Source: a virus (taxonomy: Duplodnaviria > Heunggongvirae > Uroviricota > Caudoviricetes). Taken from it: a stretch of 64,000 nt of DNA. Positions within the stretch are counted from its first letter, which is position 1, and the number at the start of each line of letters is the position of its first letter. A program made the translations under genes and the position numbers. The stretch covers positions 1 to 64,000 of the IMG/VR virus record IMGVR_UViG_2974549561_000001; one strand, given 5' to 3'. Below are positions 28,068-33,757 of the stretch, one piece after another. A model generated the notes under the pieces. That model saw nothing but the letters and a program-made list of their open reading frames with translations. It searched no databases and was not told where the DNA came from.

Positions 28068-28502
28068 ATGTCTGACGTCTCAACAAACCTCTATAAGAGT
28101 CAGTTGTTGGACTATTACTATCAGCGGCGCGCTGAATCGTCCATTAACAAAGGCTCTCGATTTTTAATCAGCAAGGCCGTTTTCGGTACCAGTTCACTGG
28201 TTACTAAGAAAGGAGATGGCACTTATGAGATTGGAGAACTGCCAAAGGCTTTCGATCTGGCAGAACTGACCAGTCAATTTTGCACCATCAACCTCGTCCC
28301 AACCTACTCAGGCGGGATAATTACTGTCCGAATGGACCTTGATCAAAGTCAGTTGCAGGAAGGGAAAAACTACCCATTCAACACTCTGGTTGTTCTGGAT
28401 AACGAGAATAAGCCAATCGCCATTATTTGTGTCCAAGAAGACTCGCTGTATGTGGGCAAAACATATACCGCAGTTATGGCCATAAACACGACAACAGCAT
28501 AA
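28068..28502 (+). CDS. R: tail-fibre-associated protein (R position)
   Basis: 144 aa immediately upstream of S. Confidence 0.5.
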   Translation: MSDVSTNLYKSQLLDYYYQRRAESSINKGSRFLISKAVFGTSSLVTKKGDGTYEIGELPKAFDLAELTSQFCTINLVPTYSGGIITVRMDLDQSQLQEGKNYPFNTLVVLDNENKPIAIICVQEDSLYVGKTYTAVMAINTTTA

Positions 28503-28513
28503 GGATATGCTTG

Positions 28514-30856
28514 ATGAATGACGTTACAGTTGTTACATCAGTTACTTACCCATCACCCGAGTCGTTGGCTCTGGTGGCTGATGTGCAATACCACGAACCA
28601 TATCTGTCAGCCGCGCTAAACCGAAAATTCAGGGGGATTGTTGACCCGGGATTTTATGCCGGTTTCTTACCTAAGCCTGGCGGTGGGATGAACCTGTTAA
28701 TCACCTCAGTGGATGGTGATAAAACCGCAGGCGCGGCGTCGGTGGATATTGGTGAATTCTACCAGGTAACTATTCAGCAACGTAAGGATATTTCTCTTGC
28801 ACTTAGTGCAGGCAAGAAATATGCAATTGTGCTGAAGGGAAGATACCTCCTTGGAGAAGATACCTATCAGGTGAATACCGCGTCACATATTCATGCGGCT
28901 GAATTTGTTGCCAGAACCTATACCGATTCATATCAGTTAGGAGATGGAGAGCTGCTTGTTTGTACGGTGAATATCCCTGCTGGCGTATCAGCCATTACCC
29001 AGGAGATGATTGATACATCCGAGCGTATTAACCGCACGATCGGCATTGATATTTCAGACTCTGTAACCAGTAGCAGAAGTGATGTTGCTGCAAGTTCGCT
29101 GGCAGTTAAAAAAGCCTACGATCTGGCGAAAAGCAAGTATACGGCGCAGGATGCAAGCACAACGCAAAAGGGATTAGTTCAGCTCAGTAGCGAAACTAAC
29201 AGCGACAGCGAAACAATGGCGGCTACCCCTAAAGCCGTTAAGTCTGTAAAAGATCTTGCTGATACCAAAGCGCCAATAGAAAGCCCGAGTCTGACAGGAA
29301 CGCCAAGCGCGCCGACGGCAGCGCAAGGTACAAACAGCACGCAGATAGCAAATACAGCCTTTGTTAAGGCAGCTATAACTGCACTTATCAACGGTGCACC
29401 TGGCACACTGGATACACTTAAAGAAATAGCTGCTGCGATCAATAACGACCCGAATTTCAGCACAACTATCAACAATGCCCTGGCTCTCAAAGCGCCTTTG
29501 GCAAGCCCTGCATTAACGGGTGTCCCTACTGCGCCGACCGCCGCACAGGGCACAAATAATACGCAGATTGCTACGACCGCTTATGTAAGAGCTGCCATAT
29601 CCGCATTGGTTGGTTCATCACCAGAAGCTCTTGATACCCTGAATGAGCTTGCCGCAGCACTTGGCAATGACCCGAACTTTGCGACAACAATGACAAATGC
29701 GCTGGCAGGCAAACAGCCTCTGGATGCAACTTTAACCGCGCTCGCTGGCCTTGCGACTGGTGCAAACAAACTGCCTTATTTCACTGGTAAGGATACGGTA
29801 GCTCAGACTGATTTAACGTCAGTCGGTCGCGATATTCTGGCTAAAACAAGCACACTGGCCGTTATCCAATACCTTGGTTTAGGCGAAACGATAAATCTGG
29901 CTGCGGGCGCAGTCCAGAAAACTGGCGATGAGATGAACGGGAAGTTAACCCTGCCACAGACATCTTCCTTCGGCGTGAATACTAATAACACACTGGGCGG
30001 TAGTTCCATCGCTATCGGTGATAACGATACCGGGCTCAAAGGGAACGGCGACGGTAATCTGGCATTTATGGCTAACAACGTGCTGGCAGGATATTTTAAT
30101 GAAAATGAATTGCAGCACAGTAAAAAGATGCTGACTAAAAATTTTCAGGCTCTTGTTGATAATAACTGGCCGGAGGGGGCGGGGGGATTTTCTGGTCAGT
30201 TAAGCAGTGAAGCACCGTTTAGTGTACCAATGGTTCACCGTCAGAATAATGATAATAATTTTTTCCCGCTCCTGAAAGGAAAGGTCTCACTGGAGTCTGG
30301 CTATCCTGTAGCCGCCTCTTTCGGAATATTAACTAGTGGGAATACTAATTTCCCACAAATTGCAATTCACGCGAAAACAGACTTTGATGTTAACGATAAA
30401 ATATGGGTATTTGATGTTGCAACCGGAGAATTTCGCGCGCCGGGCAGGATTACAGCTACAGAAATTTTATTGAGCGGTAAAAGCCGTGTTGCTCCTGATG
30501 GTAATTTATATGGTGATGTGTGGGGTGGCTGGCTGAATGACTTCCTTAATAACAATTACAACCGCAAAAATACTGCCAGTCTGGGTGATTATGGATGGGT
30601 TCGTGACGAAAGCACCGGGTTTATAATGCAATGGGGGACACTTGGTAGCTCAAACGGAACCTACAATTTCCCGCGAGAGTTTCCGGCATCCTGCTTTGCT
30701 GTATTTGTCACCAACAATAATCAGCAGGGGGGGGCGGTGGATAACGCGTTTGGATATCCGGTGAGTAAAAGCCAGTTTTTTGCCGCTACAAAAGATTCAT
30801 CGAGCAGTAATCATATAAATAACTACCCTGTAGCCTGGTTTGCGATTGGGAGATAA
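28514..30856 (+). CDS. S: tail fibre protein S (constant part plus currently expressed variable part)
   Basis: N-terminal about 450 aa ([14 protein letters not shown]...) matches P1 S as I recall it; C-terminal part after cixL is a different variable domain. Confidence 0.9.
29282..29722 (+). repeat. tandem intragenic repeat in S
   Basis: two about 220-bp units encoding [26 protein letters not shown](F/Y)V and DTLxExAAAxxNDPNF(S/A)TT. Confidence 0.6.
29862..29887. other. cixL crossover site
   Basis: TTATCCAATACC-TT-GGTTTAGGCGAA, gix/cix-like 12-2-12 structure at the constant/variable boundary of S. Confidence 0.55.
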
Positions 30857-30857
30857 A

Positions 30858-31265
30858 ATGAGCGATTATTATTACAGCTTTAAAGAGAAAGGTTTTTTCT
30901 ACAAGCCGGATACCGAATCGGGAGATTGCCCGACTGATCTAATTCCTCTGACTGATGAACACTACCATGAACTTATGCAGGGTCAGGTGGACGGAAAATA
31001 TATTGAGCACAGGAAAGGAGGCCCAGTACTGGTTGAACATCGCGAATATACGCCTGAAGAACTGGTTGCACAGGCTGAATCCAGAAAAGCGGAACTCCTT
31101 GCCGGAGCAGAGTCAGTCATTGCGCCACTGGCACGGGCAGTAAAACTAAAAATTGCCACAGATGAAGAGATTAAACGGCTGGACGCCTGGGAGCTCTACA
31201 GTGTACTGGTAAACCGGGTGGATACCTCAAATCCTGACTGGCCGGATAAGCCAGCCAGCCAGTAG
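30858..31265 (+). CDS. U: tail fibre assembly protein U
   Basis: 135 aa after S, GGGAGA SD; Tfa-like. Confidence 0.65.
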
Positions 31266-31268
31266 TCG

Positions 31269-31856
31269 TTATTGTGGTAATTCAGGCCACCTGATTTCCG
31301 TGAAGGTGGCTGAGTCTTTCACGCCGCTCAAATCCAGCGTTTTAAGCGCCCTGATATACGCCATCCATTTAGTCAGGCTGGCCTTATCGTCGTCACTTAT
31401 TTCACCCAACGCCAGTTCGGTTCGCCAGTCGGCAATGGCGCTGTTAGCGGCATCCAGTAGTTTCTGTCGGGTGGTTTCGGCCTTAGCCTGATAATCCACC
31501 GGAACGGGTAAAACCTTACCATCCCTGTACAACCATGAGCCATCACCACGGCAATCATCAGGACAGTCAGCAGCGTCTATTTCCGCAACAGACATATTAA
31601 CCGGCCACAACATTGATACAGAATATGTGTTGCCACGTTGCGGGACTGGCTTATTAACAACACCCCAGATAACCCCTTCATGGTCGTACATTATTTTTGC
31701 AGTATCATCAGAAAATAATGACTGACACTCATACCAGTCCTGTCCGTCGTCTGACTTCAGAAAATATGCACCTATATTTATTTCGGCCTGAGTTTTCCCC
31801 CTGTTTACAGGCGCGTCAGTCAGTCTGAAATTTTTGATATTCTGATATTTTTTCAT
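31269..31856 (-). CDS. alternative tail fibre assembly protein U'
   Basis: convergent with U inside the invertible segment. Confidence 0.6.
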   Translation of the reverse strand: MKKYQNIKNFRLTDAPVNRGKTQAEINIGAYFLKSDDGQDWYECQSLFSDDTAKIMYDHEGVIWGVVNKPVPQRGNTYSVSMLWPVNMSVAEIDAADCPDDCRGDGSWLYRDGKVLPVPVDYQAKAETTRQKLLDAANSAIADWRTELALGEISDDDKASLTKWMAYIRALKTLDLSGVKDSATFTEIRWPELPQ

Positions 31857-33098
31857 TATACCGTTCCCCCTTGTACGGTATACCACTGATTCCCGACTCG
31901 TTTTTGCAAAGGCGCATAATTAATACCATCAATATTTTCGCCCTGATAATCTTTCCAGACGGAGGTAACTACATATCCGGGAGTGTTAGGCCATGACCCT
32001 GCATTGTTCCAGGTAGTCACTGATGTGCCGGCCCCTAACTGAACATCTAAGACGAGATTATTATTAATCCAGGTACTTAACCAGCCATTTCCCCATAGCG
32101 AACCAAAGATATCACCGTTATTCTGATAGATGGCCCCGCCTGCACGCAGTACGTTAGCGGTGATATCGCCATTGACCGTAAACAGGACTGAACCATCAGG
32201 GTTTCGCTGGCTGTATAACTGCCATCCCTGATCATCATCCAGTTCAATTACAGTGGGCCTGTTTGCGTCGCCCCATAATTTAAACGTGGCTGTCATTGTC
32301 GAATTATTATTACTCGTTAGTGACAGTTTTTTTTCTTTGCCTGCGCGAATAGCTCCCAGAACCATCATTTCACCGGGAGCGACACGAACGGTGTGCTGGT
32401 TGTTCGCGTATGTATCCAGTATCCCGTCACCGTTCTGTTTAAAACCGGTATCGTTATCACCGAGTACAATTGAATTACCGCCCAGTGCATTGTCAGTACC
32501 AATGCTTAACGGACCGTTTAGCTGTCCCCCTGTAATCGGCAATGCACCCACATCACCGGCTGTTGGTTTCATCAGACTACTGTAAATTGTATATGTCTGA
32601 CCGCTGGTTGAGTTTCCCGGCTGTACTGATGAATATTCAGGCGTACTGTGCAACGTGACATTTGCATTACCGGTGTAGTCATATTGCGCAATTAACCAGT
32701 ACGCATACTGGCCGATATTAATATAAATATCGTAGGTGTCGCCTGATGTATTAACCCATGCGACCTCGTTAGCCGCAGCAGGCGAGCGTCTCCACAACGT
32801 GGCAGTTATTCCAACAGGTGAGCCATTACCGGCACGCAATACCAGTTCGCTGATTGCCGCCTGTTCAGGTGAACCAGCGTTAAACCCCGCCCCACCGTAC
32901 AGTTTAATCACCGCTGTTGATGTAGCCTGCGGCATTACAACCGTGGCGATTTTGAACCAGCCTGATTCACCAAGTGTAATGGTAGTCGATGTTACCGCGC
33001 CGATAGTTCTCGCAAATTGTTTTTTGTCCGGAATATCGCCGCCATTCTGCGATTTTTGCAGTGCACCCGCAGCGAGATTTATCGTTTCTCCTAAACCA
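31856..33098 (-). other. silent alternative tail-fibre variable segment Sv'
   Basis: lacks its own N-terminus; encodes ALGGNSIVLGDNDTGFKQNGDGILD... resembling the P1 S C-terminal part; would fuse to Sc after inversion. Confidence 0.7.
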
Positions 33099-33111
33099 AG
33101 GTTTTTGCGAA
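33086..33111. other. cixR crossover site
   Basis: reverse complement TTCGCAAAAACC-TT-GGTTTAGGAGAA. Confidence 0.55.
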
Positions 33112-33175
33112 TTGCCTCCGTGTCGTCTGAACGATATTTTTTCCCGCTTTTAGCAACAATCGCTGGTGATAAAGT

Positions 33176-33757
33176 ATGCAATATGGTTATGCGAGAGTGT
33201 CAACTTTTGACCAAAATTTAGAATTACAACTGGAGGCGCTCAGGAGTTCAGGATGTGACCGGATTTTTGAAGATAAAATATCCGGTGCGAAGTCAAAACG
33301 ACCAGGGCTTGATAAGCTGATAAAAGTGTTGCGGCCTGGCGATACGGTTGTTGTCTGGAAACTGGACCGAATGGGACGTTCTCTGATTCATCTTGTTGAG
33401 TTACTGAACTTTTTTTTATCAAACAACATTGAGTTTATTTCGGTTACAGAAGGGATAAAAATTAGCACATCAATTGGCCGCTTTGCTTACACGATGCTGA
33501 GTGCGGCTGCAGAGCTGGAGCGGGAAAATATTATTGAAAGAACGCGTGCAGGATTGGCTGTGGCAAGGGCTAACGGCAGGATAGGAGGACGCCGTTCAAA
33601 ACTGACACCAGAGCAATGGGAGCAGGCCGGACGTTTATTAGCGCAAGGAGTCCCCCGCAAGCAGGTCGCATTGATCTACGATGTGGCTCTGTCAACTTTG
33701 TATAAAAAACACCCCGCCAAACGAACGTGCATAGAAAGTAACGCTCAAACCAATTGA
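33176..33757 (+). CDS. serine DNA invertase (Hin/Gin/Cin/Pin family)
   Basis: 193 aa; catalytic YARVST N-terminus; C-terminus RLLAQGVPRKQVALIYDVALSTLYKKHPAKR resembles Gin/Pin; 65 bp from cixR. Confidence 0.85.
   Translation: MQYGYARVSTFDQNLELQLEALRSSGCDRIFEDKISGAKSKRPGLDKLIKVLRPGDTVVVWKLDRMGRSLIHLVELLNFFLSNNIEFISVTEGIKISTSIGRFAYTMLSAAAELERENIIERTRAGLAVARANGRIGGRRSKLTPEQWEQAGRLLAQGVPRKQVALIYDVALSTLYKKHPAKRTCIESNAQTN

What the first reader, a model, noticed from the sequence alone, without database searches (positions are those of the whole stretch)
29282..29722. Tandem duplicated module inside tail fibre S
Two units of about 220 bp encode near-identical peptide blocks. Such repeats are recombination substrates that change fibre length.
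Basis: seen in the sequence. Interest (0 to 1): 0.2.

Follow-up and report, generated by a model that had tools for sequence, protein, structure and literature searches.

The report
Known b1/b2 repeat, P1 tail fibre
The two ~220-bp units are real, but they are the long-annotated "b1/b2 repeated elements" of the phage P1 tail-fibre gene S: an old, diverged pair of 74-amino-acid shaft modules whose copy number ranges from one to four in related plasmids and phages.

Summary
Window 29270-29491 and 29492-29713 are two gap-free 222-nt (74-codon) units inside tail-fibre gene S (28514-30856). They are 62% identical in DNA and 68% in protein, far above chance (z = 11.6 and 20.5).

They are not "near-identical". 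Synonymous sites are saturated, codon sharing at conserved residues is at chance level, and the longest identical run is 8 nt.

The units coincide exactly with "repeated element b1" and "b2" annotated in P1 GenBank records M81956 and NC_005856, so the feature is already known. Each unit is a Pfam Phage_fiber_2 motif followed by a helical segment. This module type occurs in more than 44,000 protein clusters, with up to about 9-11 full copies per protein.

Among P1-like plasmids in PLSDB, 32 records have one chimeric unit (b1 head + b2 tail), 15 have three units and 9 have four or more. The extra units are b2 head + b1 tail. Phage phi456 carries three units. Where resolved, the crossovers map to 5-10-nt identities in the conserved [16 protein letters not shown] core.

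In this window the pair is a poor recombination substrate. The finding is ordinary, with a modest add-on from the copy-number survey.

The parts
28514..30856 (+). Tail-fibre gene S (780 aa). The constant part Sc runs up to the cix site and is followed by a Fels-2 gpH-like variable part.
   Evidence: The ORF is. Query nt 1-1461 of the 28427-30856 ORF (window 28427-29887: the R-S junction plus Sc up to the cix site) is 95-97% identical to P1/P7/RCS47, and the remainder is 95% identical to Fels-2 gpH-like. Pfam gives PF03406 twice plus a C-terminal PF21882.
29102..29137 (+). Repeated element a0: a 12-codon partial copy of the 3' end of a1.
   Evidence: Mapped from the M81956.1 feature at 1615-1650. 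A weak diagonal at offset 44 aa is seen.
29138..29269 (+). Repeated element a1 (44 codons).
   Evidence: Mapped from the M81956.1 feature at 1651-1782. It is homologous to Mu tail-fibre protein S residues ~102-168 (PDB 5yvq and 8ju3).
29270..29491 (+). Unit b1 (S residues 253-326): a Phage_fiber_2 motif followed by a helical segment of the b1 type.
   Evidence: It corresponds to M81956.1 'repeated element b1' at 1783-2004.
29492..29713 (+). Unit b2 (S residues 327-400): the same module, with a b2-type tail. This is the type found as a single copy in P2 gpH and lambda Stf.
   Evidence: It corresponds to M81956.1 'repeated element b2' at 2005-2226.
29309..29313 (+). GCGCC, unit nt 40-44 in b1 (the partner in b2 is 29531-29535). 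This is the crossover interval of the one-unit chimeras.
   Evidence: The L009 unit equals P1-type b1 for nt 1-44 and P1-type b2 from nt 40 onward. L008 and L010 have the same junction.
29339..29346 (+). ACGCAGAT, unit nt 70-77 in b1 (the partner in b2 is 29561-29568). This is the crossover interval of the extra b2-head::b1-tail unit in the L011/phi456-type three-unit arrays.
   Evidence: The middle unit of L011 and phi456 matches its own b2 up to nt 77 and its own b1 from nt 68.
29869..29887 (+). cixR-type inversion crossover site, 156 nt downstream of b2. It marks the end of the constant part. The repeat lies outside the invertible segment.
   Evidence: Two inverted sites were found against 0.06 expected by chance. 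Sibling plasmids carry the segment in both orientations.

Best explanation
The feature is the known pair of 'repeated elements b1 and b2' in the constant part (Sc) of the P1-type tail-fibre gene S.

Each 74-residue unit is one structural module of the trimeric fibre shaft. Its first ~30 residues are a Phage_fiber_2 motif (SPxLTGxPTAPTAxxGTNxTQIATTAFV). The remaining ~45 residues are helical (...AP..LDTL.E.A.A...DPNF.TT..NALA.K).

b1 and b2 are old, distinct paralogue types, and only selection on the protein keeps them similar. At DNA level they share runs of at most 8 nt in this window, so this gene is stable against ordinary homologous recombination.

Rare in-register exchanges at the very short identities within the conserved [16 protein letters not shown] core have nevertheless occurred in the P1/D6 family. 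They produced one-unit genes (b1 head + b2 tail) and three-unit genes (b1, then b2 head + b1 tail, then b2). Once an extra unit exists, neighbouring units share identical runs of 58-209 nt. Ordinary homologous recombination can then expand or contract the array, and four-unit forms are seen.

The net effect is that the constant shaft of the fibre protein varies in 74-residue steps, independently of the Cin-type inversion that swaps the receptor-binding tip.

Shown here: the anatomy of the repeat, its age, its prior annotation, the copy-number variants and their chimeric junctions. Inferred: the exchange mechanism, and the idea that physical fibre length or reach changes.
For: The units coincide exactly with the GenBank features 'repeated element b1/b2' of P1, and the DNA is 95-97% identical to P1/P7/RCS47 Sc.

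Pfam PF03406 matches twice, at 101.8 bits against a cut-off of 22.

The ordered b1-type then b2-type pair is also present in the gpH of Klebsiella P2-like phage 4LV2017. P2 gpH and lambda Stf carry one b2-type unit.

One-unit forms: the matched span is exactly 222 nt shorter, the junction is chimeric, the ORFs are intact at 740, 781 and 853 aa, and 32 PLSDB records fall into three allele groups.

Forms with three or more units: P0136; 24 PLSDB records with a single-piece 666-nt match, 9 of which give an 888-nt match; DNA-level chimeras and identical runs of up to 209 nt between neighbouring units; and phage isolate phi456 with an intact three-unit S of 818 aa.

The module is generic and variable in copy number. 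The profile hits 44,172 cluster representatives. Proteins carry up to 9 full units in a strict 74-aa tandem (11 dispersed in one giant protein), and 74 aa is the commonest spacing between units.
Against: No experiment shows that unit number changes the physical fibre length, adsorption or host range.

For the L008-type one-unit allele, no close two-unit parent exists in PLSDB; the next-best match to its b2-to-cix segment is 88% identical. That lineage could have arisen by exchange with a foreign single-unit fibre gene rather than by an event within the gene.

The one-unit and three-unit junctions lie at different points (unit nt 40-44 and 68-77), so they are not the two products of a single event.

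PLSDB counts are records, not independent events. Twelve of the 17 identical one-unit records are the same 100.9-kb Salmonella plasmid.

Arrays with near-identical units could be mis-sized in some assemblies.

The monomer structure model is of low confidence (pLDDT 64), so the helical/non-helical split within a unit is only indicative.
Confidence: 0.85

Rival explanations
1. This is the reader's literal reading: a recent tandem duplication whose near-identical copies currently act as an efficient substrate for homologous recombination in this genome.
For: The units are adjacent, in frame and of equal length. Relatives do vary in copy number.
Against: DNA identity is 62%. Third codon positions are 27% identical. 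The proportion of synonymous differences is 0.85, which is saturated. Codon sharing at conserved residues equals the chance expectation (16 against 16.2). The longest identical run is 8 nt, far below the ~25 nt usually taken as the minimum for efficient RecA-dependent exchange in E. coli (that figure is from my own knowledge). The same b1-type/b2-type pair exists in a Klebsiella P2-like phage, so the pair predates P1-like phages. In the phage collection, 15 of the 16 P1-like records that carry b1, and most plasmids, have exactly two units.
Confidence: 0.05
2. The pair did not arise by duplication in place. Two already distinct modules (a b1-type and a b2-type) were instead brought together by horizontal mosaic exchange between fibre genes. 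Some copy-number variants also reflect exchange with foreign fibre genes rather than unequal exchange within the gene.
For: b2 is closer to the single unit of P2 gpH (85% aa) and lambda Stf (77-78% aa) than to its neighbour b1 (68%). Mosaic breakpoints cluster at unit borders: D6 homology starts at the a1/b1 border, and other lineages diverge at window ~29203. In one-unit genes, divergence jumps from ~98% identity upstream of the junction to 85-93% downstream. The L008-type allele has no close two-unit parent.
Against: The L009 one-unit gene is a clean join of P1-type b1 to P1-type b2. The extra unit in L011 and phi456 matches its own neighbours on either side of the crossover. The two accounts are not mutually exclusive, and both leave the same present-day anatomy.
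Confidence: 0.25
3. The similarity is due to chance or low complexity (Ala/Thr-rich sequence), and the copy-number variants are assembly artefacts.
For: The units are rich in A, T, P and N residues. TRF and the seed-based finder report nothing.
Against: The z-scores are 11.6 (DNA) and 20.5 (protein) against same-ORF background. Pfam matches with E = 1.4e-29. The chimeric one-unit junction is found in 32 complete plasmid records from E. coli, E. fergusonii and Salmonella, in three allele groups. The three-unit arrays in L011 and phi456 have clearly different units (at most 60 identical nt), which assemblers do not miscount.
Confidence: 0.02

Closest known systems
Repeated elements b1/b2 (and a0/a1) of the constant segment Sc of bacteriophage P1 gene S: GenBank M81956.1 and NC_005856.1. 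From memory, described by Sandmeier, Iida & Arber 1992, J Bacteriol 174:3936, and re-annotated by Lobocka et al. 2004. Neither paper could be opened here.
   Same: The gene, the position (between a1 and cixR), the 222-bp unit length and the register are all the same. DNA identity across Sc is 95-97%.
   Different: Only allelic differences (for example Ser instead of Thr at b1 residue 13). The variable part downstream is Fels-2 gpH-like rather than the Mu-like Sv of P1.
Pfam PF03406 Phage_fiber_2 (phage tail fibre repeat)
   Same: The first ~40 residues of each unit match the model end to end (positions 1-40 of 42). Two stretches are found, E = 1.4e-29.
   Different: The Pfam repeat covers only about half of the 74-residue unit. 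The helical [17 protein letters not shown] half is a separate, widely shared motif: actinophage minor tail proteins, 9d93 gp4 collar fibre and 6v8i gp68.
Single b2-type unit in P2 gpH and lambda side tail fibre Stf
   Same: The unit is 85% (P2) and 77-78% (lambda) identical to b2 over all 74 residues. In the Ur-lambda model (PMC12617516), Stf residues 394-422 are called a hinge and 423-525 a distal coiled coil. By my coordinate mapping, the lambda unit is at about residues 395-468. The motif half would then fall on the hinge and the helical half on the start of the coiled coil.
   Different: These proteins have one copy rather than two, no b1-type partner, and different N-terminal attachment domains. 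The residue mapping is an inference from locus coordinates and was not checked against the deposited model.
Fibre shafts built from variable numbers of repeats (for example the adenovirus fibre shaft or T4 long-fibre repeats; from my own knowledge)
   Same: A modular trimeric shaft whose length is set by repeat number.
   Different: The repeat fold and sequence are unrelated. For P1 no measurement links unit number to fibre length.
Cin/Gin/Min/Pin invertible tail-fibre switches
   Same: They act on the same gene and also vary the fibre. The cix site lies 156 nt downstream of b2.
   Different: Site-specific inversion swaps the C-terminal receptor-binding part. The b repeat lies in the constant part, outside the invertible segment, and varies by rare unequal exchange rather than by a dedicated recombinase.

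Membership tests
P1 gene S repeated elements b1/b2 | Located in the constant part Sc of a P1-type S gene, between element a1 and cixR | tested here: met
   The M81956.1 features at 1783-2004 and 2005-2226 map to window 29270-29491 and 29492-29713. The cix site is at 29869-29887.
P1 gene S repeated elements b1/b2 | Two tandem 222-bp units in frame, homologous to P1 b1 and b2 respectively | tested here: met
   The window's b1 is 96% nt identical to P1 b1, and its b2 is 91% nt identical to P1 b2. Both align without gaps.
Pfam PF03406 Phage_fiber_2 | Score above the curated gathering threshold | tested here: met
   101.8 bits against a cut-off of 22, with two stretches, one in each unit.
Recombinogenic (contingency-type) tandem repeat | Long stretches of DNA identity between copies, enough for efficient homologous recombination | tested here: not met
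   The longest identical run is 8 nt in this window and 11 nt in the P1 reference. Synonymous sites are saturated.
Recombinogenic (contingency-type) tandem repeat | Copy-number polymorphism among close relatives, with chimeric junction units | tested here: met
   PLSDB holds 32 one-unit, 15 three-unit and 9 four-or-more-unit records. Phage phi456 has three units. Junctions are b1-head::b2-tail or b2-head::b1-tail.
Recombinogenic (contingency-type) tandem repeat | Measurable switching rate and a phenotypic consequence | not testable with these tools
   This needs fluctuation assays, electron microscopy and adsorption measurements.
Cin-type invertible segment | Lies between inverted cix crossover sites | tested here: not met
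   The units end at 29713. The invertible segment spans about 29869-33104.

The most novel reading that the evidence does not exclude
The b-array may be a second, slower axis of fibre variation in P1-like plasmid prophages. On this reading, unit number (1 to 4 or more) tunes the length or hinge geometry of the constant shaft to the thickness of the host surface layer (LPS O-antigen or capsule). This would act independently of the tip swap made by the invertase, with expanded arrays behaving as true length-switching repeats. The same Fels-2-like invertible tip cassette is found behind both a two-unit shaft (this window) and a one-unit shaft (the Salmonella plasmids of the NZ_CP1491xx series), which offers a natural comparison.
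Probability: 0.25. Interest if true: 0.45.

Novelty: already known. Interest (0 to 1): 0.2.

Why it matters
For this window it matters little. The repeat is a textbook part of the P1 tail-fibre gene and has been annotated since the early 1990s.

The useful by-product is a clear natural series of S genes with one, two, three and four units. Their crossover points can be mapped to 5-10-nt identities in the most conserved part of the module. This shows how a diverged and apparently inert repeat can still seed copy-number change, and then become truly recombinogenic once a near-identical extra unit exists.

That has two practical uses. For engineering P1-based delivery vehicles, shaft length could be a tunable parameter with naturally validated designs. 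For annotation, S genes that differ by multiples of 222 nt are genuine variants, not errors.

Tried and rejected
- **Repeat finders.** Tandem Repeats Finder and the exact-seed repeat finder found no repeat at the site. This reflects divergence, not absence.
- **Selection against homology.** I tested whether codon choice at conserved residues is more different than chance, which would suggest selection against recombination. It is not: 16 shared codons against 16.2 expected, P = 0.54.
- **Primary literature.** I tried to open Sandmeier et al. 1992 and Lobocka et al. 2004; neither is held. Prior knowledge therefore rests on the GenBank feature tables. The full-text searches found no paper describing the b elements or their copy number. 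One search found only a loosely analogous tailocin study with fibre-length haplotypes.
- **Parent of the L008-type allele.** I looked for a two-unit parent of the L008-type one-unit allele. None exists in PLSDB, and the next-best match is 88% identical.
- **Structure.** The AlphaFold2 monomer model of window 29102-29890 had low confidence (pLDDT 63.7, pTM 0.23). A Foldseek search against the PDB gave no significant match. No 3-D claim is made beyond secondary structure.
- **One-unit forms in phage isolates.** None were found among the 16 P1-like records in the phage collection.
- **First protein search.** It returned only short fragments, which were of no use for counting units. The representative-library profile search was used instead.

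Full report
**1. The observation**

The stretch lies inside a 780-codon ORF, 28514-30856 on the + strand, whose product starts [10 protein letters not shown]. Splitting the region at 29270/29492/29713 gives two 222-nt units that align without a gap. They share 137/222 nt (61.7%) and 50/74 residues (67.6%).

In-frame ungapped pairs of 222-nt segments from the same ORF average 26.8% identity (sd 3.0, maximum 43%). Pairs of 74-residue segments average 6.8% (sd 3.0, maximum 31%). The repeat therefore stands at z = 11.6 for DNA and z = 20.5 for protein. In a protein self-comparison, offset 74 is the only strong diagonal.

Tandem Repeats Finder and the seed-based finder both miss it, which already shows that the copies are not near-identical.

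**2. How old is the pair?**

Identity by codon position is 78%, 80% and 27%. The proportion of synonymous differences is 0.85, which is beyond saturation, and dN is 0.25. At the 50 conserved residues the two units use the same codon 16 times, against 16.2 expected from local codon usage.

All of the DNA similarity is therefore a by-product of protein conservation. There is no trace of recent duplication or gene conversion, and no sign of selection for extra divergence. The longest identical run between the units is 8 nt: GCGCCGAC at unit nt 40-47, with ACGCAGAT at nt 70-77 equally long.

**3. Identity of the feature**

Query nt 1-1461 of the 28427-30856 ORF (window 28427-29887, which takes in the R-S junction and Sc up to the cix site) is 95-97% identical to the constant part of gene S in P1, P7, RCS47 and other punaviruses. 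The remainder is 95% identical to a Fels-2 gpH-like gene.

P1 GenBank record M81956.1 annotates 'repeated element a0' (1615-1650), 'a1' (1651-1782), 'b1' (1783-2004) and 'b2' (2005-2226). The P1 reference genome NC_005856.1 repeats these features. Mapped through the alignment, b1 is window 29270-29491 and b2 is 29492-29713, exactly the register found independently above. The feature is therefore already described.

From memory, the source is Sandmeier, Iida & Arber 1992 (J Bacteriol 174:3936), which spoke of sequence amplifications giving mosaics of partially related repeated elements. I could not open that paper or Lobocka et al. 2004.

**4. What a unit is**

Pfam PF03406 (Phage_fiber_2, 'phage tail fibre repeat') matches twice, at 101.8 bits against a cut-off of 22. 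Each match covers the first ~40 residues of a unit. The second half (...[19 protein letters not shown]...) is a separate, widely shared helical motif. On its own it matches actinophage minor tail proteins and three solved chains: 9d93 gp4 (tail collar fibre), 6v8i gp68 (upper fibre) and, for the first half, 9k09 (tail fibre).

An AlphaFold2 monomer model of window 29102-29890 has low confidence (pLDDT 63.7). It gives the same pattern in both units: about 28 residues without regular structure, followed by about 45 helical residues. Foldseek against the PDB found nothing significant.

Lambda Stf carries one unit that is 77-78% identical to b2. By locus coordinates it corresponds to about Stf residues 395-468. 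The Ur-lambda study calls residues 394-422 a hinge and 423-525 a distal coiled coil (PMC12617516). The motif half may therefore form a knot or hinge and the helical half a trimeric bundle. That mapping is my inference.

**5. Two unit types and an old ordered pair**

Clustering units by their tail halves (residues 28-74) gives two groups. The b1 type contains the first unit of P1, D6 and the gpH of Klebsiella phage 4LV2017. The b2 type contains the second unit of those three, together with the single units of P2 gpH and lambda Stf.

b2 is closer to the P2 unit (85%) than to its own neighbour b1 (68%). The b1-then-b2 pair is therefore an old cassette shared between P1-like and some P2-like fibres. 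Whether it began as a duplication in place or as a fusion of two modules cannot be decided from these data.

More broadly, a profile built from the two units hits 44,172 cluster representatives at E <= 0.001. Among the top 150 proteins the number of matched stretches ranges from 2 to 23. Up to 9 full units occur in a strict 74-residue tandem (P0121), and 11 are dispersed in one giant protein. The commonest spacing between units is 74 residues. The module is a generic fibre-shaft building block with variable copy number.

**6. Testing 'recombination substrates that change fibre length'**

I used window 29138-29890 to query 72,556 plasmids, and 556 records matched. Three of the 60 sampled rows matched end to end, but over a span exactly 222 nt shorter.

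*One-unit forms.* Alignment of those three loci (L008, L009, L010) shows a single chimeric unit: b1 through nt 36-44, then b2-type sequence. The L009 unit is identical to P1-type b1 for nt 1-44 and nearly identical to P1-type b2 from nt 40 onward. This places the exchange within the shared GCGCC at unit nt 40-44. L008 and L010 have the same junction, but their b2 part is a diverged allele.

All three genes are intact ORFs of 740, 781 and 853 aa. A 120-nt junction probe finds 32 full-length matches in three allele groups (17 at 100%, 6 at about 95% and 9 at 93.3%). These come from E. coli, E. fergusonii and Salmonella. Twelve of the 17 identical records are one 100.9-kb Salmonella plasmid sampled repeatedly. 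No one-unit form is present among the 16 P1-like records in the phage collection.

*Expanded forms.* The representative search turned up P0136, a P1-type S protein with three units: b1, then a chimera of b2 head and b1 tail, then b2. This is the kind of product expected on the other side of an unequal exchange.

tblastn with those three units finds 24 plasmid records with a single 666-nt match. Nine of these also give a single 888-nt match to a four-unit query. That leaves 15 three-unit records and 9 with four or more units.

At DNA level, the middle unit of L011 follows its own b2 up to nt 77 and its own b1 from nt 68, so the crossover lies in ACGCAGATCG. L012 and L014 have four units.

In these expanded arrays, neighbouring units share identical runs of 58-209 nt, against 8-12 nt between b1 and b2. 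Phage phi456, a Punavirus P1 isolate with host E. coli MC1061, has an intact three-unit S of 818 aa.

**7. Interpretation**

In this window the two-unit gene is the common, stable form, and it is a poor substrate for homologous recombination. Across the family, rare in-register exchanges at very short identities within the conserved [16 protein letters not shown] core have removed a unit or added one. Once an extra near-identical unit is present, ordinary homologous recombination can change the number further.

Several caveats apply:
- The one-unit and three-unit junctions lie at different points, so they are not the two products of one event.
- The L008-type allele has no close two-unit parent in PLSDB, and divergence jumps at its junction. 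Exchange with a foreign fibre gene is therefore a live alternative for that lineage.
- Counts are database records, not independent events.
- No data link unit number to physical fibre length or host range.

**8. Context**

The repeat lies in the constant part, 156 nt upstream of a cix-type site at 29869-29887. The inverted partner site is at 33086-33104. Sibling Salmonella plasmids carry the intervening segment in both orientations.

The segment encodes two alternative fibre tips and two tail-fibre assembly proteins (Caudo_TAP). It is followed by a serine invertase that is 60% identical to P1 Cin. The same tip cassette (99.8-100% identical) sits behind a two-unit shaft in this window and a one-unit shaft in the NZ_CP1491xx plasmids.

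**9. Verdict**

The feature is already known and annotated, so it is ordinary for a P1-like element. The survey of one- to four-unit variants with mapped chimeric junctions is a modest addition that I did not find described in the searchable literature. Interest is low.

Noticed in passing
window 29869-29887 (+) and 33086-33104 (-); segment ~29864-33117: The invertible tail-fibre segment is bounded by inverted cix-type sites. Sibling 100.9-kb Salmonella plasmids from single-cell isolates carry it in both orientations, so inversion is active in that population.
   Followed up: partly
window 33176-33757 (+): The serine invertase (Resolvase + HTH_7 domains) is only 60% identical to P1 Cin. It lies on the same strand as S, whereas cin in the P1 reference lies on the opposite strand. 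The inversion module is therefore not the classical P1 one.
   Followed up: partly
window 29888-30856: The expressed variable part of S is 95% identical in DNA to a Fels-2 (P2-like Salmonella prophage) gpH-like gene. It ends in a Gp53-like_C domain, unlike the Mu-like Sv of P1.
   Followed up: no
window 29327-29476 (inside b1): The 254-kb Aeromonas phage AP1 (MT713136.1) has a 150-nt stretch that is 93% identical to part of b1. That is surprisingly close for such a distant phage and suggests a recent transfer of a fibre-module fragment (H24).
   Followed up: no
window 29102-29269: The upstream elements a0 and a1 are also annotated in P1. a1 is homologous to Mu tail-fibre protein S residues ~102-168, for which solved structures exist (5yvq, 8ju3).
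   Followed up: partly
window ~29203, ~29260-29290 and ~29738-29771: Homology breakpoints between P1-like plasmids recur at these positions. About a quarter of the sampled records share only window 29138-29203 and then diverge. D6-type genes join at the a1/b1 border. The mosaic joints therefore cluster at repeat-element borders.
   Followed up: partly
window 29980-30062 and 32416-32498: This 83-nt inverted repeat is 77% complementary. It is probably the conserved proximal part shared by the two alternative variable ends, Sv and Sv'.
   Followed up: no
L012 (CP057763.1) 1201-1644 and L014 (NZ_CP021729.1) 1201-1644: In four-unit arrays, adjacent units are 219/222 and 214/222 nt identical, with identical runs of 209 and 144 nt. 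These look like very recent duplications and should be unstable.
   Followed up: yes
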